From a virus, in IMG/VR virus record IMGVR_UViG_3300031162_001159, positions 6,650 to 70,649 of that record: 64,000 nt of DNA, one strand, 5' to 3'. Both the position numbers and the translations under genes were made by a program. Shown in pieces: positions 943 through 7,930 of the stretch. The notes below the pieces were generated by a model. That model searched no databases. It worked only from the letters and a program-made list of their open reading frames with translations, and had not been told where the DNA came from. Every line of letters begins with the position of its first letter. Position 1 is the stretch's first letter.

Positions 943-1968
943 ATCTTTGCAACATATTTACGCAGTTCGAGCTACAATACATATGACTTTTGCCCGATGC
1001 AATACTTCATCAATTATAATCTGGGAATTCCCGGAGCTAATTGGAAGGCTTCAACGCGAGGCACTATAATTCATAAGGTGATGGAAGTCCTCGCGGGATT
1101 CAAAAAGTTTGAACAGGACAACCCAAAGAAGAAATACCTATTGTTAGACGATGACAATCTTGGGCCTCTTAAGATCCATAAAGATAAATTTAGGACTGAG
1201 GAATACATCCAAACATTAATAGATGATTGTTATGATTACTACACTAGCAAGTGTGAGAATACATACAAAGACGAAGACTATAAATTCTGTGTAAAATGGT
1301 CAGAAAAAGCCCTATCCTTTAATGATGGAGAATTTGATCCGAGAAATCAGAACATCTTATGTCCAGAACAGCACTTTGATATTGAATTTGAAGAAGATTG
1401 GGCTAAGTACGAATATGAGATGCCTGATGGTAGAACACTCTCTGGTCAACTCAGTATAAAAGGGACGATTGACCTACTCACTCTTGAAGATGAAGAGACT
1501 ATTGAAGTTATAGACTACAAAACAGGTCAAAGAAAAAACTTTGCCACTGGTAAAAAGAAGGACAGGGAATATTTTGAAAAAGATCCTCAGCTTTTGCTCT
1601 ACTTTTATGCAATCAAAAAGTTATATCCTGAATATAAAAACGTGATCATGACGATATATTGGGTGCGTGATGGTGGACCATTCAGTATCAGCTTCGATGA
1701 TGTCGATGAAGAATATTTCCTTGAGAAGATTAAGGAGCGTTTCAACGAGATAGTTGAAGATAAACACCCAACATGTATTAAATATAATCCATCCAAGAAG
1801 AGTAACTGCTATATGTGTAGGTACTATAAGGATAATTGGCCTAATACAAACACTAAGATCTGCAACTTTGTAGAAAAGAATTTGGACTATTTAGGTATGG
1901 ATGAGACTATTAGGGTTTGTGGTGAAGAAGGCTACGATATTAATTACTACCACGCACCGGGAAGTTAG
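943..1968 (+). CDS. PD-(D/E)XK exonuclease, Cas4/RecB(AddB)-like; probable non-canonical ATC start at 943 (ORF track starts at 997)
   Basis: RGTIIHKVME, KGTIDLL, VIDYKTG, QLLLY motifs; C-terminal CxxC. Frame is open from 919 and encodes YLRSSSYNTYDFCP upstream of ATG997; AGGAG at 929-933. Confidence 0.85.
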   Translation: MFATYLRSSSYNTYDFCPMQYFINYNLGIPGANWKASTRGTIIHKVMEVLAGFKKFEQDNPKKKYLLLDDDNLGPLKIHKDKFRTEEYIQTLIDDCYDYYTSKCENTYKDEDYKFCVKWSEKALSFNDGEFDPRNQNILCPEQHFDIEFEEDWAKYEYEMPDGRTLSGQLSIKGTIDLLTLEDEETIEVIDYKTGQRKNFATGKKKDREYFEKDPQLLLYFYAIKKLYPEYKNVIMTIYWVRDGGPFSISFDDVDEEYFLEKIKERFNEIVEDKHPTCIKYNPSKKSNCYMCRYYKDNWPNTNTKICNFVEKNLDYLGMDETIRVCGEEGYDINYYHAPGS

Positions 1969-1977
1969 GGATTTTAA

Positions 1978-4560
1978 ATGCTAAGAAACTATACACACAA
2001 TTCGTTACACAAATCATTCATTACACCGAAAAAGCTTGTGAAAGCAACAAAAAAAATGGGGTTGGATTTTGTGGGTATCTGTGATGAGAACACGATATCT
2101 GGAATGGTGGAGTTCTACAAGGAATGTAAAGATAAGGAAATTAAGCCGGTTATTGGTTGTGAGTTCTCAGTTGGTGATGAAAGGTTTCCTCTGTTTGCTC
2201 TTAATAGAGATGGTCTTAACTCCCTAATTTCTGCTTGTTCTAAAATAGGTTTGGGAGAAACGTTGAGTCAAGAGGATATTGATATTCTTAAATCTAGTGA
2301 TGATATCGTGGAATATCACGACTGTCAAACCGCTAGATATTTAGAGGGGGATTACGATGAATTTAAATTAATCGTTGATTCAAACAAAGATATTGATAAA
2401 GATGAAAAAACAGAGATTAAAGAAAACGCAAATGCTCTCAAAAATTACGTTGATGAAGAGGCAATAAACAAAGTAAGGGCAGAGATTGTAGATCGCGTTG
2501 AAGACTACGGTCTAGCATCAAGACCAGTCCTCCCCTTTTTCTCTTGCCCAAACAACATGGATCAAGATGAATATCTTCGTCACCTTTGTAGAGAAGGGTG
2601 GAGAGATAAGCTGATTGGTTCTGGTAAGATAGACACAGAAGAAGCCAAGAAGGAATATGCAGACAGGGTAAAATATGAATTAGAGGTTCTTCAAGGTGCT
2701 GGACTCTCTGGATATTTTCTTGTCGTCCACGATATTGTTAATTATGTAAGAGAGCAGGGTTGGATTCCGGGACCGGGACGTGGAAGTGCGGCTGGCTGTC
2801 TCGTCTCTTATTTAGTGGGTATTACCTCAACAGATCCAATATCTCATGGACTACTCTTTGGTCGATTTTATAATAAGTCACGTAACACTGAGACTCGTGT
2901 TGAGCTTCCAGATATTGACTTAGATATTCCATCAGAGAATAGAGAACAGGTTCTTGACTATATCAAAGAAAAGTATGGAAACAGTAATGTTTGTCATATC
3001 GGAACATTCGGTACATTGCAGGGGCGTTCTGCTCTAGAGACTGTTTTTAAGGCAAGAACCAACATGACTTTTACAGAAGTCAAAGAAATGACTAAGATGC
3101 TGCCAGAAAAGGCTAGGGTCGAAGATTTAATGGAAGAATCGGAAGAAGATTCCTTGATCCTCTGGACTTTAAAACATAGGCCAGAGATTTTAAATAAATG
3201 GTGTCGTGTAAGTATCGATGATGAGACCAACGAGCTTAGATATCTTGGCGATTATGGTGATCTTTTTGAAATCGCTGTTGAAATTGAAGGTATCTACCGA
3301 TCTTATGGTAAACATGCCGCTGGTGTAATTATTTCACCTAGTGCTATCAAAGATATCATGCCTGTTCGTATTGATAAAGATGGGGATATTGTAAGTACAC
3401 TGACCATGAAAGAAGTTGAATTTATGGGCGGTGTTAAGTTTGATATTCTTGGAGTTGATATTCTTGGTAAAGTCCTAAGTATTATCAATAAGAGCAAATT
3501 GATTCCCGGCATCGAAGTTTTAAAGGATTTTGACGATGAAGAGGTTTGGGATCTAATTTCCTCTGGCAAGACCAAAGGTATATTTCAGCTAGATTCCAAC
3601 ACTGGTCAAACGTGGTCAGCAAAGGTAAAACCCAGAAATATTGATGAGTTGTCAGACCTATGCTCTATTATTAGACCGGGAACACTGAATGCTAAGATGG
3701 ATGGAAAAAGTATGGCAACACACTATGTTGACCGTAAGTTTGGTGAAGAGTTTGAGTTCATTCACAAGGCACTTGAACCTATCCTAAAAGATACCTATGG
3801 TATTATTGTATATCAAGAGCAGAGTATGAAAATTGCTAGAGATATCGCCGGTTTCAGTGAAGAAATGGCTGATCAATTGCGTAAGGCTATCGGTAAAAAA
3901 GATGCAAAACTTATGAAAGAACTTAAATCCGAGTTTCTTGATGGGTGTAAAGAACAGGGGATTATAGATGATGATACGGCCTTGATTGTTTATGAGAATA
4001 TCGAGAAGTCAAACAGATATTCGTTCAATAAATCACACGGTGTCGTTTATGCTGTTAACGCCTACTGGTCTGCCTACTGCAAAGTCCATGATATTAATTA
4101 CTTTTTTGAGGTATATCTAAACCGTGCTTATAAGAAACCAAAATGGAAAATTGAGATCAAAGACTTAGTGATGGATTGTCGCCAATTTAACGTGGACGTA
4201 AGACCGCCAAACTTGAGCAGATTATATGAAGAGTTTTTCTATAATGAAGGTGACAATGTTATTTACTACGGTCTTTCGAAGATAAAAAATGTCGGATCAT
4301 CAGAAACTCAGAGATTTTTTGATGCTGTCAAGGAAGTTGAACTACAATTAGATAGAGGAATAGACAAGTTCGATTGGACTGAGGTTCTGTTGTTGGTTCT
4401 GAGTCGTGTCAACAAGAAAATGGCAGAAGCATTGATACAAAGTGGTTCGATCAATAGTAAAGAAATCAATATAGATAGGAATGAAATGATGTATGAGTAT
4501 GAAACTCTTAGAAATTTACTTAAAAAAGAAATAGATTGGATGAGGGAAAATTATGTTTGA
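1978..4560 (+). CDS. dnaE: DNA polymerase III alpha subunit (C family), N-terminal part: degenerate PHP, palm, fingers, HhH
   Basis: GPGRGSAAGCLVSYL, PDIDLD, HAAGVII, KFDILG, YQEQ.M, YSFNKSH motifs; ends before the OB fold. Confidence 0.95.
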   Translation: MLRNYTHNSLHKSFITPKKLVKATKKMGLDFVGICDENTISGMVEFYKECKDKEIKPVIGCEFSVGDERFPLFALNRDGLNSLISACSKIGLGETLSQEDIDILKSSDDIVEYHDCQTARYLEGDYDEFKLIVDSNKDIDKDEKTEIKENANALKNYVDEEAINKVRAEIVDRVEDYGLASRPVLPFFSCPNNMDQDEYLRHLCREGWRDKLIGSGKIDTEEAKKEYADRVKYELEVLQGAGLSGYFLVVHDIVNYVREQGWIPGPGRGSAAGCLVSYLVGITSTDPISHGLLFGRFYNKSRNTETRVELPDIDLDIPSENREQVLDYIKEKYGNSNVCHIGTFGTLQGRSALETVFKARTNMTFTEVKEMTKMLPEKARVEDLMEESEEDSLILWTLKHRPEILNKWCRVSIDDETNELRYLGDYGDLFEIAVEIEGIYRSYGKHAAGVIISPSAIKDIMPVRIDKDGDIVSTLTMKEVEFMGGVKFDILGVDILGKVLSIINKSKLIPGIEVLKDFDDEEVWDLISSGKTKGIFQLDSNTGQTWSAKVKPRNIDELSDLCSIIRPGTLNAKMDGKSMATHYVDRKFGEEFEFIHKALEPILKDTYGIIVYQEQSMKIARDIAGFSEEMADQLRKAIGKKDAKLMKELKSEFLDGCKEQGIIDDDTALIVYENIEKSNRYSFNKSHGVVYAVNAYWSAYCKVHDINYFFEVYLNRAYKKPKWKIEIKDLVMDCRQFNVDVRPPNLSRLYEEFFYNEGDNVIYYGLSKIKNVGSSETQRFFDAVKEVELQLDRGIDKFDWTEVLLLVLSRVNKKMAEALIQSGSINSKEINIDRNEMMYEYETLRNLLKKEIDWMRENYV

Positions 4561-4795
4561 TTTGAATAGTGTTAAAGATGTTGTTAAGAAGGGTGGAACT
4601 GTAGAATACAGAGGTAATAGTGTCTGCAATTTAGAGAAGGTGCTGAATTACCCATTCAAAACTGATACACCATATCAAGTAAATCTCGCAAAATCAAAAT
4701 ATAACAAGAAAACTGGTGAGTATGAGGGCGATGCTCTCTATAATGATCTTGAGGAAGCAGCAAAATACTTTATTGAGGAATGTAGAAAATCATGA
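4553..4795 (+). CDS. hypothetical protein
   Basis: 80 aa; overlaps dnaE stop; coupled to next gene (ATGA). Confidence 0.6.
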   Translation: MFDLNSVKDVVKKGGTVEYRGNSVCNLEKVLNYPFKTDTPYQVNLAKSKYNKKTGEYEGDALYNDLEEAAKYFIEECRKS

Positions 4796-5211
4796 AAACA
4801 ATTATTTGTGGACCAAGAGACTTTAACGATTACGAAGAACTTTGTTTGGCTATTCAAAAATCTGGAATCAAGATTACTCAGGTGGTTAGTGGTGCAGCTT
4901 CTGGTGCTGACAGTTTGGGGGAGAGATGGGCCAGAGAGAACAAGATACCTGTTGTCAAGTTCAAACCAAAATGGAACGATATATCCCATCCAAAAGCTGT
5001 AGTAAAGACCAATGCTTATGGAAAGTATAATGCACTGGCTGGTTTTATTCGGAATGAAGAGATGGCTATGCACGCACAAGCCTGTATTGCTATTGATACT
5101 GGTTCAAATGATGATATGATTGAGAAAGCAAAAGAAAAAGAGTTGGAGGTTTATTGTCATCTTCCATATGAGAGCGATATGATGGATGAGATGAAGAAGG
5201 TGAAGTTTTGA
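4792..5211 (+). CDS. SLOG-superfamily protein (DUF2493/YspA-like)
   Basis: IICGPRDFNDY...VVSGAASGADSLGERWA...AGFIRNEEMA. Confidence 0.85.
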   Translation: MKTIICGPRDFNDYEELCLAIQKSGIKITQVVSGAASGADSLGERWARENKIPVVKFKPKWNDISHPKAVVKTNAYGKYNALAGFIRNEEMAMHAQACIAIDTGSNDDMIEKAKEKELEVYCHLPYESDMMDEMKKVKF

Positions 5212-5666
5212 GCTTCTTTAATTTCTTTGATAGTGATACTAGAGAAAGACCAAGGCGTGTGACTATTGGGGATAATAGTCCTAGATGGTGTATTACATGT
5301 GGGGAAAAGATAGATCAAGACCCTAATAGTACCGCTATTGAATATAATTGTCCCAACAATCACTGGAATTCAATTTTTCATTATAGTGAACCGCAAGGGG
5401 GATATATACAAAATTGTCCAACTTGTGAGGCCACTAGAAAAACCACTTGTTCTGCTTGTGGGTGTGGTAACTGTTTAACATGTGGTCAGAGATTCTCTTG
5501 TGGTAGTGACATCATTATTAATCTAGAGCCTCAGCACCTAAAAATACCACAAACAAAAGATGACAAAACTATAAACGAAATAGATAAAGTATTAAAGTCT
5601 GGTATGTACCCAGACGATCAACTGATAGAAATAGAAATGATTTTAAAGGAATATTATGCCACTTAA
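5208..5666 (+). CDS. Cys-rich multi zinc-ribbon protein
   Basis: CITC, CPNNH, CPTC, CSACGCGNCLTC; TTG start overlapping upstream stop. Confidence 0.6.
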   Translation: MSFFNFFDSDTRERPRRVTIGDNSPRWCITCGEKIDQDPNSTAIEYNCPNNHWNSIFHYSEPQGGYIQNCPTCEATRKTTCSACGCGNCLTCGQRFSCGSDIIINLEPQHLKIPQTKDDKTINEIDKVLKSGMYPDDQLIEIEMILKEYYAT

Positions 5667-6354
5667 TTTAGTACCATACTGCATATTTGATACAGAAACT
5701 GGCTCGCGTAACCCCCACAACACTCAAGTAACTCAGCTTGCAGCTATTATGCTTGATCCCCGTAGCCTAAAAATTAAGGCTGGTGGCGAATTCAATTGCG
5801 AAATACGTGCATATATCGATGACGAAGTAGCTATCGAGAAGGGACTTGCCCCGCTTGAAGAGGACGCTCTGAGAATCACTGGAAAGACCAGAGAAGAGAT
5901 TGATAAGGCACAGGAATTGACAATCGTCTGGGATAAATTCACAAGTTGGGTGAAAAAGTTCAATAAAAGCAATAATATTTTTACTGCACCTATTCCAGTT
6001 GGCTATAATATTAATAACTTCGACCTACCAATCATCAATAGATTGTGTCATCAGTTCGGAAACGTTAGTGATAAAGATAAGCGACCAAATCTATTCAATG
6101 CAATTAGAAAGGTCGATATGATGGATGATTTGTGGATGTGGACAGAAAGTGATCCAGAAGTCAAGTCTCTCAGTATGGATAACGTAAGACAATGGTTGGG
6201 TTTTCCAGAAGAGAGTTCTGCGAACGCACACGATGCTTTGCAAGACGTTAAGGATACGGGAAACCTGTTTATTAAGTTCCTGAAATATTATAGGAATATT
6301 ACAAAAGAAACTAAGTTCGAGAATGCATTTGCTAAATCTGGGATGTATATATGA
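5656..6354 (+). CDS. DEDDh 3'-5' exonuclease (DnaQ / Pol III epsilon-like)
   Basis: FDTETG (ExoI), GYNINNFD (ExoII), AHDALQD (ExoIII). Confidence 0.9.
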   Translation: MPLNLVPYCIFDTETGSRNPHNTQVTQLAAIMLDPRSLKIKAGGEFNCEIRAYIDDEVAIEKGLAPLEEDALRITGKTREEIDKAQELTIVWDKFTSWVKKFNKSNNIFTAPIPVGYNINNFDLPIINRLCHQFGNVSDKDKRPNLFNAIRKVDMMDDLWMWTESDPEVKSLSMDNVRQWLGFPEESSANAHDALQDVKDTGNLFIKFLKYYRNITKETKFENAFAKSGMYI

Positions 6355-6749
6355 AACCATATCTAATTCATGAAGAAGAATATACAGCATATGTAATCCC
6401 AACAGGTGGTCGCCGTATACCAAACAAGTGTGTATACGGTGATCCTATAGATTTTAAAAAATTTTCCTATTTTAAAAATGGGGAATTCTATGGCTGCTTA
6501 AATCTAACAGAAAATGAGCACTATATCATAAAGGATGAGTTGGAGAAGTTTTGTAAAGCCAATGTTTTAGTGTTGCATTACTATAGAAAGTTGAAAAGAG
6601 GACACGTTCCGTGTTACAGAGAATTCAAGGTAAGCGGTCATTCATTACATATGAGCCTACTTGATAAATTTTTAGAGGAGCACAAACTATTTGAACATAT
6701 GGAAAGAAATCCTAACACTATAGAGGAAAAAAGGAAAAATGAGAAGTAA
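6351..6749 (+). CDS. hypothetical protein
   Basis: 132 aa; ATGA coupling. Confidence 0.55.
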   Translation: MKPYLIHEEEYTAYVIPTGGRRIPNKCVYGDPIDFKKFSYFKNGEFYGCLNLTENEHYIIKDELEKFCKANVLVLHYYRKLKRGHVPCYREFKVSGHSLHMSLLDKFLEEHKLFEHMERNPNTIEEKRKNEK

Positions 6750-7038
6750 AACATGTGATACCTACGGAAATGTAGCCAAGTATGATATGAGAAGACCAAC
6801 TCACCCATACTCTGGAAAAAGAAGAGAGGTATATCAGGAGGGTTATTCAAACCTTAGACCGCTACCATCATTAAGTGGACCCTGCCCATGTAGTGTCCCT
6901 AAAGTTGATGTAGAAATGCCATATTATAAAACTAATGAGGATGGAACAAAGTCGATAGCATATAAGACGGTTGCTGTTCCAGATACTTATAGAAATTGCT
7001 GCTTAAAAAAGAATAGAGTACATGAAAAGATTAACTGA
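6739..7038 (+). CDS. small protein with interrupted SEC-C-like metal-binding motif
   Basis: GPCPCS ... YRNCC resembles SEC-C (PCPCGSGKKYKxCC) with an insertion. Confidence 0.55.
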   Translation: MRSKTCDTYGNVAKYDMRRPTHPYSGKRREVYQEGYSNLRPLPSLSGPCPCSVPKVDVEMPYYKTNEDGTKSIAYKTVAVPDTYRNCCLKKNRVHEKIN

Positions 7039-7531
7039 TCAAATAGCAAATCTTATAAATGCAGATCGCAAAACGACAGCACCACGTACAGAGAAGGTTG
7101 TCAAAATTAAGAGAGCATTGGATAATCCGATGCAGACACTTAAAGATGATGAAAGATATATCTGCGAAAAAGAAGAAGAGTTTTTTGGTGTTAGTCTTAC
7201 ATATTCGGTAGCTGACACGGTTGATATAAATACTAGATATGACTGTGGAAATGTTTTGAAAGAAGCACCTAGCAAGAAGAATGTTGTAATTGTTGGTCAA
7301 GTTTCAAGATGGAATGAAACTAAGGTTAAGAATGGAAAAAACGGTGGTAAAGACATGTGTTTTATCACAATTGAAGATTCTACCGGAAGATTGGACGTTG
7401 TTTGCTTCTCAGATGCCTATAATTCAGATGTGAAGGCTCATCTTTATTCGGGAAGCATCATCTTAATAGATGGCAGAGTGTCTGAGGATAGAAGATCCTT
7501 TATCGTTGATAAGGTTAAACAAGCGGAATAA
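7022..7531 (+). CDS. dnaE: DNA polymerase III alpha, separate C-terminal part with OB fold
   Basis: EEEFFGVSLT (cf. E.e.lG.y.s), then VVIVGQV...TK..G.DMCFITIEDSTGRLDVVCFSDAY...IILIDGRV, the DnaE OB fold. Confidence 0.9.
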   Translation: MKRLTDQIANLINADRKTTAPRTEKVVKIKRALDNPMQTLKDDERYICEKEEEFFGVSLTYSVADTVDINTRYDCGNVLKEAPSKKNVVIVGQVSRWNETKVKNGKNGGKDMCFITIEDSTGRLDVVCFSDAYNSDVKAHLYSGSIILIDGRVSEDRRSFIVDKVKQAE

Positions 7532-7585
7532 GATCTCATGTTGGGATCTAAAAATAGATGTAGTTTTAAGAGGAGAGTTCAAGAG

Positions 7586-7930
7586 ATGAATATTTGTATT
7601 TTTACAGGAAGATTGACTAGAGACCCTGAGACCCGCGATGCGGGTGGCAATACCGTAACATCATTCGGTATGGCTATTGATGATTCTTATAAGAACAAGA
7701 GCACTGGTGAACGAGTTGACCAAGCTGTTTTTCTTGATTTTGAATGCTGGGGTCAAAGAGGTGAAGTTCTTTCCAGTTATGTTAAGAAGGGTGACGAGCT
7801 AAAGATTCAAGGTCGTGCCAAGCAAGATAATTGGGAGAGTAAAGAGGGACAGAAGAGAAGCAAGGTTCTCTTTACTGTAATGGACTTCGAATTCGGTCAA
7901 AAGAAGGGTGGAGGACAGAAGAGTGAGTAG
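7586..7930 (+). CDS. ssb: single-stranded DNA-binding protein
   Basis: MNICIFTGRLTRDPE...F.MA...FLDFECWG...GR...WESKEGQKRSK; AGGAG upstream of ATG7586. Confidence 0.92.
   Translation: MNICIFTGRLTRDPETRDAGGNTVTSFGMAIDDSYKNKSTGERVDQAVFLDFECWGQRGEVLSSYVKKGDELKIQGRAKQDNWESKEGQKRSKVLFTVMDFEFGQKKGGGQKSE

What the first reader, a model, noticed from the sequence alone, without database searches (positions are those of the whole stretch)
1978..7531. DnaE split without inteins, with six genes including a proofreading exonuclease nested in the 2.46 kb gap
Seen: the 860 aa ORF has palm/finger/HhH motifs and stops at ...EIDWMRENYV*. The missing C-terminal region and OB fold are a separate 169 aa ORF at 7022. 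The halves look contiguous and both are intact. No intein termini or intron-encoded protein are visible. The gap holds a SLOG protein, a Zn-ribbon protein, a DEDDh exonuclease, a SEC-C-like protein and two unknowns, all coupled by overlapping stops and starts. Established: known split DnaEs (cyanobacteria) rejoin via split inteins. Inference: either a two-subunit polymerase co-expressed with its epsilon, or rejoining at RNA/translation level (e.g. TAT4552 to TAC7019 would give ...RENY-MKRL...).
Basis: partly seen in the sequence, partly recalled or inferred. Interest (0 to 1): 0.75.

Follow-up and report, generated by a model that had tools for sequence, protein, structure and literature searches.

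The report
Intein-free split phage DnaE polymerase
An uncultured marine phage encodes its main DNA-copying enzyme as two separate genes with the proofreading nuclease gene lying between them, a rare variant of a split layout that is widespread among its uncultured relatives.

Summary
An 860-aa DnaE N-part (1978-4560) and a 169-aa OB-fold C-part (7022-7531) are exactly contiguous against an unsplit relative. Six overlapping ORFs fill the 2461-nt gap, one a DEDDh exonuclease. No intein, intron, junction repeat or excised DNA form was found.

It is not an assembly artefact. Contigs from other studies bridge both junctions. Two further phage species carry the same split with 7 or 4 gap genes.

Best reading (0.8): the two pieces are translated separately and assemble non-covalently, with the exonuclease as proofreader. 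The complex model scored 0.79 against 0.00 for controls, but this may reflect memory of solved full-length alpha.

The wider context was unexpected. Among related IMG/VR loci, 76 of 87 have dnaE split elsewhere, at palm|fingers (~617), with the same exonuclease in that gap. Three are unsplit, with the exonuclease just upstream. So the window is a rare break-point variant.

RNA- or translation-level rejoining is not supported. Five full-text searches found no description. Expression is untested.

The parts
997..1968 (+). PD-(D/E)XK nuclease, the conserved upstream neighbour of the dnaE module
   Evidence: PF12705 E 4.5e-17. It lies upstream of dnaE in nearly all related loci.
1978..4560 (+). 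dnaE N-part, 860 aa: PHP, palm, thumb, fingers and HhH/beta-binding region
   Evidence: Pfam and NCBIfam hits. Aligns to Taq Pol III alpha 384-945. 48% identical to unsplit P0049 up to its residue 960.
4553..4795 (+). g80, a small conserved protein of unknown function that always lies next to the exonuclease gene
   Evidence: A homologue is present in L007, L105, unsplit L018 and 18 split-617 loci by blastp. 26-sequence alignment A4. AF2 pLDDT 89; best PDB match is only YkuJ at Z 5.9.
4792..5211 (+). SLOG (YAcAr) protein
   Evidence: PF10686 E 1.4e-13 and phrog_289. Present in all three split-962 species.
5208..5666 (+). Cys-rich 152-aa ORF with a TTG start; a variable accessory gene
   Evidence: No family hit. 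A shorter 99-aa version is in L007 and it is absent from L104/L105.
5656..6354 (+). DnaQ-like DEDDh 3'-5' exonuclease, the presumed proofreader
   Evidence: PF00929 and phrog_192 'DNA polymerase exonuclease subunit'. Catalytic residues are conserved in 78 unique homologues. It is co-inherited with dnaE.
6351..6749 (+). 132-aa ORF of unknown function; a variable accessory gene
   Evidence: 64% identical homologue in L007 and absent from L104/L105. No family or atlas lead.
6739..7038 (+). 99-aa ORF with a CPC...CC pattern, function unknown
   Evidence: Homologues in L007 (94 aa) and L104/L105 (96 aa). No SEC-C hit.
7022..7531 (+). dnaE C-part, 169 aa: an N-terminal helical segment of about 60 residues plus the OB fold
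   Evidence: PF01336 at 40.1 bits. The best NCBIfam hits are all DnaE C-termini. Aligns to P0049 972-1131 and to E. coli alpha 1009-1057. Stand-alone 169-170-aa relatives exist at 56-65% identity.
7538..7930 (+). SSB, the conserved downstream neighbour; a terminator-like hairpin follows at 7954-7980
   Evidence: PF00436 E 6.5e-20. Syntenic in related loci. Hairpin.

Best explanation
The phage's replicative C-family polymerase is made as two polypeptides from one tightly packed operon. The first is a catalytic N-part (PHP, palm, thumb, fingers, HhH). The second is a small C-part consisting of about 60 helical residues plus the OB fold.

The C-part's N-terminal segment completes the beta-binding/HhH domain of the N-part. 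The two therefore assemble non-covalently into a DnaE-like enzyme. The DnaQ-like exonuclease encoded between them acts as proofreader, and g80 may be a further subunit.

Nothing is rejoined at the DNA, RNA or protein level. The layout arose by gene rearrangement in a lineage whose dnaE was already broken around the g80-exonuclease pair at another site. The other gap genes (SLOG, Cys-rich ORF, g132, g99) are accessory genes that have accumulated in that gap.

Shown here: the anatomy, the exact contiguity, conservation, and DNA integrity in other samples. Inferred: separate translation, assembly, and the order of evolutionary events.
For: (1) The halves are exactly contiguous against unsplit relatives, with no missing or extra residues.

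(2) The same break is kept in three phage species with DNA context: the window, L003-L007 and L104/L105. N- and C-parts are 55-65% identical between them. C-parts are 169-175 aa, each with its own start (ATG, ATG, GTG). Gap content differs (6, 7 and 4 genes) while the break point stays fixed. Further stand-alone C-parts and 854-891-aa N-parts exist in the protein collections.

(3) The C-part profile hits 1099 proteins at E<=1e-3. 263 of 272 fetched relatives project onto the C-terminus of DnaE. This marks it as a DnaE piece rather than a generic OB protein.

(4) Complex prediction on N 500-860 plus the C-part scored 0.79 (runs 0.78-0.80) against a best control of 0.00. That mark was reached by 58 of 80 solved complexes and 2 of 110 mismatched pairs. 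The runs agree in at least 93% of contacts and the partner's pLDDT is at least 84. The interface is N 724-860 with C 1-60 and 118-123.

(5) All eight gene junctions overlap. No + strand terminator-like site lies before 7954, just after SSB.

(6) The exonuclease catalytic residues are intact and its tree shows the same major groups as the DnaE tree.

(7) Contigs from runs of other studies bridge both junctions with 0 differences, and no joined form appears in the 4 runs laid.

(8) In 87 related loci the order is N-piece, exonuclease, C-piece, split at about 617. A multi-piece DnaE is therefore the norm in this group.
Against: There are no expression, protein or activity data, and no run on record as RNA holds the stretch.

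The complex score may come from the model's memory of solved full-length Pol III alpha. It shows likeness, not binding.

The C-part has no clear Shine-Dalgarno sequence upstream, so its translation would depend on coupling to the 99-aa ORF.

Polymorphism among L003-L007 was too sparse to test selection: 0 differences in dnaE-C.

By my recollection, the OB domain is mobile in solved Pol III alpha structures. A free OB subunit might bind only weakly.
Confidence: 0.8

Rival explanations
1. The two ORFs no longer work together. The N-part is a self-sufficient polymerase and the 169-aa protein has become an independent OB-fold accessory factor, for example an ssDNA or template binder that is not stably bound to the polymerase.
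For: The OB domain is the last domain and, by my recollection, is flexibly attached in solved Pol III alpha. An SSB gene lies directly downstream. No binding has been measured.
Against: C-part residues 1-60 are not OB fold. They are predicted to pack against N 724-860 with about 110 contacts. The invariant motif at C 49-62 lies in that interface. The break point is fixed while the gap content changes.
Confidence: 0.1
2. The halves are rejoined after transcription or translation, by trans- or cis-splicing of an intron, by ribosomal bypass from TAT4552 to TAC7019, or by a split intein.
Against: Six conserved protein-coding ORFs fill the gap. There were 0 Rfam matches at E<=1 over 1500-8500. No intein or Hint domain was found, and the contiguity leaves no spare residues for intein halves. 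In L007 the codon before the C-part start is AAT, and in L104 the start is GTG. The gap is 2461 nt, against the 50 nt I recall for the known T4 gene 60 bypass.
Confidence: 0.02
3. The gap is a mobile or excisable DNA element, for example a homing-endonuclease cassette or a developmentally excised element. It interrupts an otherwise intact dnaE, and the intact gene is restored by excision.
For: Split phage polymerase and RNR genes with homing endonucleases in the gap are known (passages of PMC2677866; listing and abstract start of PMC3045599). A 12-nt exact direct repeat lies at 4519 and 7002.
Against: No endonuclease, recombinase or transposase domain appears in any of the six gap ORFs. Deletion between the 12-mers would be out of frame (my arithmetic). 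No joined form was seen in 4 runs. The exonuclease is co-inherited with dnaE rather than moving independently.
Confidence: 0.03
4. Assembly chimera, or a decaying pseudogene.
For: The window comes from a metagenomic virus record estimated 46% complete.
Against: The stretch is held by 20 runs of 9 studies. Independent contigs bridge 4553-4560 (X9, X16) and 7022 (X9, X10). Both ORFs are intact and conserved in other species.
Confidence: 0.01

Closest known systems
dnaE split at about residue 617 (palm|fingers) around g80 and the exonuclease in related uncultured phages
   Same: Same DnaE clade at 40-50% identity. Same PD-(D/E)XK ... SSB synteny and the same exonuclease (30-55% identical) and g80 in the gap. 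No inteins at the break.
   Different: The break lies about 345 residues earlier. In 22 of 87 loci the N-piece stop overlaps the exonuclease start, so no ORF lies between them. The window is continuous across that site and is broken at 962/963 instead.
Cyanobacterial split DnaE with a split intein (Synechocystis type)
   Same: The catalytic alpha subunit is encoded by two genes. NCBIfam models of the two cyanobacterial halves (PRK09532, PRK07373) also hit the window's parts.
   Different: There the halves carry intein halves, lie at separate loci and are ligated into one chain (passages of PMC2677866). Here there is no intein, the genes lie in one operon, the break point differs and no ligation is expected.
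'Fractured genes' in marine metagenomes (Dassa et al. 2009, PMC2677866; passages read)
   Same: Environmental DnaE loci whose two halves flank an intervening free-standing gene.
   Different: Those three DnaE loci carry split inteins and a putative homing endonuclease. Here neither was detected, and the intervening genes are a proofreader and accessory ORFs.
Split gp43 (family B polymerase) of some T4-like phages, and split NrdA of phage Aeh1
   Same: Intein-free breaks of essential replication enzymes whose pieces work as separate subunits, with 2-3 kb between the gp43 halves (as summarised in PMC2677866; PMC3045599 seen as listing and abstract start).
   Different: Different enzyme families. 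A homing endonuclease caused or accompanies those breaks. None was found here.
E. coli Pol III core (alpha-epsilon-theta)
   Same: A C-family polymerase with a separate DnaQ-type proofreader and a small third protein encoded alongside (family knowledge).
   Different: Alpha is one chain in E. coli. g80 shows no theta-like match; its best PDB match is YkuJ at Z 5.9. As far as I recall, the bacterial genes are not nested.
Two-CDS DnaE in deposited phages: Rossellomorea phage phiT1 and Alicyclobacillus phage MMB025
   Same: DnaE is annotated as two CDS with small ORFs or an 'endonuclease' between them. The breaks map to P0049 614/627 and 749/750.
   Different: Only about 30-34% identical to the window's enzyme. 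There is no exonuclease in the gap and the break points differ from 962/963.

Membership tests
C-family DNA polymerase, DnaE type (Pol III alpha) | PHP domain, palm NTPase domain and fingers domain in canonical order | tested here: met
   PF02811 E 2.3e-16; PF07733 1-260/260 E 5.6e-70; PF17657 E 1e-43. TIGR00594 at 550 bits against a cut-off of 434. Taq alpha 384-945 aligned.
C-family DNA polymerase, DnaE type (Pol III alpha) | HhH/beta-binding region followed by a C-terminal OB fold on the same polypeptide | tested here: not met
   HHH_6 scores 25.4 bits against a cut-off of 25.6 in the N-part. The OB fold (PF01336, 40.1 bits) is on a separate 169-aa ORF 2461 nt downstream. The domains are all present but lie on two chains.
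Split-intein DnaE (cyanobacterial / 'fractured gene' type) | An N-intein at the end of the N-half and a C-intein at the start of the C-half | tested here: not met
   No intein or Hint Pfam hit. N ends at P0049 ~962 and C starts at ~963, leaving no spare residues.
Intron-interrupted gene (group I/II) | A structured intron RNA between the exons | tested here: not met
   0 Rfam matches at E<=1 over 1500-8500. The gap is filled by six conserved ORFs. Only described intron families can be detected this way.
Homing-endonuclease-mediated gene break (T4-like gp43A/B, Aeh1 NrdA type) | A free-standing homing endonuclease gene in the gap | tested here: inconclusive
   No HNH, GIY-YIG, LAGLIDADG or Vsr domain in the six gap ORFs. 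Four of the ORFs have no family at all, so a novel nuclease cannot be excluded.
Programmed translational bypass (T4 gene 60 type) | Matched take-off and landing codons across a short non-coding gap | tested here: not met
   The gap is 2461 nt and codes for six proteins. The Tyr landing codon is not conserved in L007. L104 starts the C-part with GTG.
DnaQ-like DEDDh 3'-5' exonuclease | Exo I (DxE), Exo II (D) and Exo III (Hx4D) residues | tested here: met
   D12 and E14 are present in 74 of 78 unique homologues; the other 4 are gaps from truncated ORF calls. D123, H192 and D197 are present in 78 of 78. PF00929 at 37.9 bits against a cut-off of 24.

The most novel reading that the evidence does not exclude
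A large, abundant lineage of uncultured marine phages runs on a multi-piece C-family replicase with no inteins. Its break point has moved during evolution, from about 617, to fused, to 962. Throughout, the g80-exonuclease pair stayed directly upstream of the OB-bearing piece.

Under this reading the N-piece, g80, the exonuclease and the C-piece form an obligate core. The nested gene order is kept by selection, for example for coupled translation and assembly. The window would then be a natural 'second solution' showing that DnaE can be cut inside the beta-binding domain and still function.
Probability: 0.35. Interest if true: 0.7.

Novelty: new variant of a known kind. Interest (0 to 1): 0.55.

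Why it matters
By my recollection, C-family polymerases are studied almost only as single-chain alpha subunits. The known natural splits are re-ligated by inteins (passages of PMC2677866).

Here an essential replicase appears to work in pieces. The break lies at two different domain boundaries in related phages, and the proofreader gene is always wedged between or just before the pieces.

This offers natural fragment-complementation sites for Pol III alpha. It gives a test case for how essential genes survive fission, fusion and re-fission. It is also an annotation warning: in these phages a 169-aa 'OB-fold protein' and 515-860-aa 'truncated DnaE' ORFs are parts of one enzyme, not pseudogenes.

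The group is seen in many marine and estuarine metagenomes. At least 563 related stretches occur in IMG/VR. No deposited phage record comes from this group.

Tried and rejected
**Relatives in sequence collections**
- Phage records (INPHARED): the C-part and the exonuclease gave no match. DnaE hits were all at most about 34% identical.
- Alignment A2 was too divergent for a locus scan, so A3 was used instead.
- Earlier findings of this scan: none on this genome.

**Tests at the break itself**
- Junction repeats: only a 12-nt A-rich exact repeat at 4519 and 7002. Deletion between the copies would be out of frame, so I treat it as chance.
- Rfam with permissive filters: nothing.
- RNA evidence: no RNA holder listed. 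X19 is only guessed to be RNA and is stored as contigs, so it says nothing about transcription.
- Selection from polymorphism among L003-L007: 1-9 differences per locus and none in dnaE-C, so it is uninformative. dN/dS between the window and L007 was not attempted, because at 55-65% amino-acid identity synonymous sites would be saturated.

**Function of the gap genes**
- g80 as a theta/HOT-like subunit: the AF2 model is good (pLDDT 89). Foldseek found nothing at E<=0.001, and the best VIA match was YkuJ at Z 5.9, rmsd 3.0 over 64 residues. That is below the level that means more than a common arrangement.
- g132: the atlas gave no usable feature hit and only TM<0.5 structure rows on a low-confidence model.
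- Homing endonucleases in the gaps of other loci: Pfam found a C5 methylase, a formyltransferase-like domain, DUF6165 and an HTH, but no endonuclease domain. My impression that the 357-aa ORF of L018 looks HNH-like was not confirmed.
- Exonuclease-DnaE fusion proteins as a Rosetta-stone test: none. The long C-terminal proteins are C-pieces with inserts of 120-400 aa.

**Caveats on other results**
- Short C-terminal proteins that start at the conserved M of the MLYEY motif may be gene-caller artefacts at contig ends. I did not verify them in loci and do not count them as extra break points.
- Promoter-like sites did not exceed chance: 31 found against 30.0 expected.


Full report
**What is there.** The window is part of a 70.6-kb IMG/VR virus record estimated 46% complete. 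Its GC content is about 38%. It carries an 1825-aa tape-measure protein, so it is a long-tailed phage.

Ten + strand ORFs run from 997 to 7930. In order they are:
- a PD-(D/E)XK nuclease;
- the 860-aa DnaE N-part (1978-4560);
- six ORFs of 80, 139, 152, 232, 132 and 99 aa;
- the 169-aa DnaE C-part (7022-7531);
- an SSB.

From the N-part stop to the C-part start, every junction overlaps by 4-17 nt.

Pfam finds PHP, palm and fingers in the N-part, plus a marginal HhH, and an OB fold in the C-part. The 139-aa ORF is a SLOG/YAcAr protein and the 232-aa ORF is an RNase_T-type exonuclease. PHROGs and NCBIfam agree. They also place the two DnaE pieces on adjacent stretches of full-length profiles.

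**The halves are one gene's worth of protein.** I compared both pieces with an unsplit relative, P0049 (1132 aa). The N-part aligns up to residue 960 at 48% identity. C-part residue 10 aligns to residue 972 (E 1e-15). So the break falls between about 962 and 963, with nothing lost or duplicated.

On solved structures, N 228-826 matches Taq alpha 384-945. C 106-156 matches the OB domain of E. coli alpha at 1009-1057.

A profile of the C-part found 1099 proteins at E<=1e-3 among 1.84 billion representatives. The 169-aa ORF is therefore a DnaE tail, not a generic OB protein.

**It is not an artefact and is not rejoined.**
- The 5954-base stretch is held by 20 runs of 9 studies, labelled marine, seawater, estuary or sediment metagenomes.
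- Contigs from runs of other studies bridge the N-part/g80 junction (X9, X16) and the g99/C-part junction (X9, X10) with 0 differences.
- No contig joins across the gap in the four runs laid.
- No intein domain was detected.
- No Rfam family matched at E<=1.
- No meaningful junction repeat exists. The only one is a 12-nt A-rich repeat whose recombination would be out of frame.
In L007 the codon before the C-part start is AAT. In L104 the C-part starts with GTG.

**The break is conserved.** A second species is 62% identical in the N-part and 55% in the C-part. It is represented by loci L003-L007, five contigs that carry the whole region. Its order is N-part (854 aa), g80, SLOG, short Cys ORF, exonuclease, an extra 114-aa ORF, g132, g99, C-part, SSB.

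A third species (L104/L105, C-part 64% identical) has only g80, SLOG, the exonuclease and g99 in the gap. So the break point is fixed while the gap holds 4, 6 or 7 genes.

Further stand-alone C-parts of 169-170 aa and N-parts of 854-891 aa exist in the protein collections.

**Predicted assembly.** Complex prediction on N 500-860 plus the C-part scored 0.79 (three runs, 0.78-0.80), against a best control of 0.00. That mark was reached by 58 of 80 solved complexes and 2 of 110 mismatched pairs. The runs agree in at least 93% of contacts and the partner's pLDDT is at least 84.

The interface joins N 724-860 to C 1-60 and 118-123. The first 60 residues of the C-part include the invariant motif at positions 49-62. 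They would thus complete the last domain of the N-part.

Full-length Pol III alpha structures are solved, so this pass may reflect memory of an intra-chain contact. It supports the idea but does not show binding.

**The wider picture.** A profile scan of IMG/VR found at least 563 related stretches, of which the 80 best were kept. I classified ORFs in all loci held.

| Architecture (87 loci covering the fingers region) | Loci |
|---|---|
| Split at P0049 ~617-632 (palm\|fingers) | 76 |
| Split at 962 (window type) | 8 |
| Unsplit | 3 |

- The 8 window-type loci are the window, its own genome piece L001, and six contigs of one other species.
- The 3 unsplit loci are L018 and L025/L026.
- At 90% non-redundancy the split-617 form makes up 55 of 59 rows.
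- The sample is the set most similar to the window, so it is not unbiased.

In 87 loci the order is N-piece, exonuclease, C-piece. That exonuclease is 30-55% identical to the window's. A g80-sized ORF precedes it in up to 56 of the 87 loci. blastp with the window's g80 recognises it in 18 of them. In 22 loci the N-piece stop overlaps the exonuclease start directly.

In the unsplit loci the exonuclease lies just upstream of dnaE, preceded by g80 in L018. The constant feature is therefore that the exonuclease, usually with g80, sits ahead of the OB-bearing piece. What varies is how much of dnaE lies upstream of it: 0, about 617 or about 962 residues.

Other loci carry unrelated genes in the gap: a C5 methylase, a formyltransferase-like ORF and DUFs. 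No endonuclease domains were found. The gap therefore behaves like an ordinary insertion-tolerant intergenic site.

**Evolution (inference).** I built a quick ML tree of the fingers region with 66 rows.
- The four split-962 rows form a clade (SH-aLRT 100).
- That clade sits with the unsplit forms in a weakly supported group (83), inside a well-supported clade (99) that is otherwise split at 617.
- The basal lineages and the outgroup L023/L024 are also split near 617-632.
- An AU test does not reject one clade for all 11 rows that are continuous across 617 (p 0.39).
- The exonuclease tree shows the same major groups.

The simplest reading is as follows. The 617 split is old. One lineage re-fused the gene, with g80 and the exonuclease ending up upstream. 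The window's lineage then broke it again at 962, or moved the module there directly.

This rests on weak ground. The trees are quick searches under LG+G4. The tool raised long-branch warnings for L025 and L085 next to the window's clade. The root depends on one outgroup.

**Comparison with what is known.**
- Split DnaE is known in cyanobacteria and in marine 'fractured genes', in both cases with split inteins. The fractured genes also carry a homing endonuclease (PMC2677866, passages read).
- Intein-free two-gene polymerases are known for family B in T4-like phages, as summarised in that paper.
- A chimallivirus split polymerase is reported in a 2026 preprint, of which I saw only the listing and the start of the abstract.
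- A fragmented NrdA assembles in phage Aeh1 (PMC3045599, listing and abstract start).
- Two deposited phages have DnaE annotated as two CDS, broken at P0049 614/627 and 749/750.

Five full-text searches found no paper on an intein-free split phage DnaE, or on an exonuclease nested in dnaE. Subscription journals and supplementary files were not searchable.

No deposited phage record belongs to this clade. The best DnaE identity was about 34%, and there was no match for the C-part or the exonuclease.

**Verdict.** The 'two-subunit polymerase with its epsilon' reading is well supported by comparative evidence but is untested biochemically. Rejoining is very unlikely.

The finding is a rare break-point variant of a widespread multi-piece DnaE layout in uncultured marine phages, one that appears not to have been described. 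It is a new variant of a known kind and of moderate interest (0.55).

Noticed in passing
proteins P0137-P0272, e.g. P0054, P0143, P0159: Many C-pieces of related phages carry inserts of 120-400 aa at P0049 positions ~681, ~728, ~750 and ~795. P0054 has an intein-splicing Pfam domain. Inteins therefore seem to riddle the fingers domain in this clade, separately from the intein-free breaks.
   Followed up: partly
L056:1540-5950: dnaE here appears to be in three pieces: 1-617, 622-863 and 880-1132. The exonuclease lies after the first piece.
   Followed up: no
L022:9992-13686: The gap between the exonuclease and the dnaE C-piece is 3 kb here. It holds several ORFs, including a C5 cytosine DNA methylase (PF00145, E 5.5e-44).
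   Followed up: partly
L023 and L024, 9959-11765: These more distant phages have a dnaE C-piece starting at about 632 followed by SSB. No N-piece or exonuclease is detectable within 10 kb upstream.
   Followed up: no
L102 (Rossellomorea phage phiT1) and L103 (Alicyclobacillus phage MMB025): These deposited phages have DnaE annotated as two CDS, broken at P0049 614/627 (a 49-aa ORF between) and at 749/750 (an 'endonuclease' between). These are the same regions as the marine clade's break and intein sites.
   Followed up: partly
window 7954-7980: The only + strand terminator-like hairpin between 300 and 8700 (12-bp stem, 7 GC pairs) lies right after the SSB gene. This fits one transcription unit ending there. 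It falls inside the ORF called from a GTG at 7908.
   Followed up: no
window 32000-64000, minus strand: Gene strand and GC skew flip at about 32 kb. The minus-strand block holds very large ORFs of 2299, 1825, 1438 and 1056 aa. Only the 1825-aa one (tape measure) has a PHROG match, and 9 of the 10 ORFs tested have none.
   Followed up: partly
window 8690-10354: The 554-aa ORF downstream of SSB is syntenic and well conserved in L007 (557 aa) and L104 (555 aa). Its function was not examined.
   Followed up: no
L018:8958-10031: In an unsplit relative, a 357-aa ORF with an N-terminal HTH and two repeated C-terminal modules lies between the exonuclease and dnaE and overlaps the dnaE start. It looked endonuclease-like to me, but Pfam gives only HTH hits.
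   Followed up: partly
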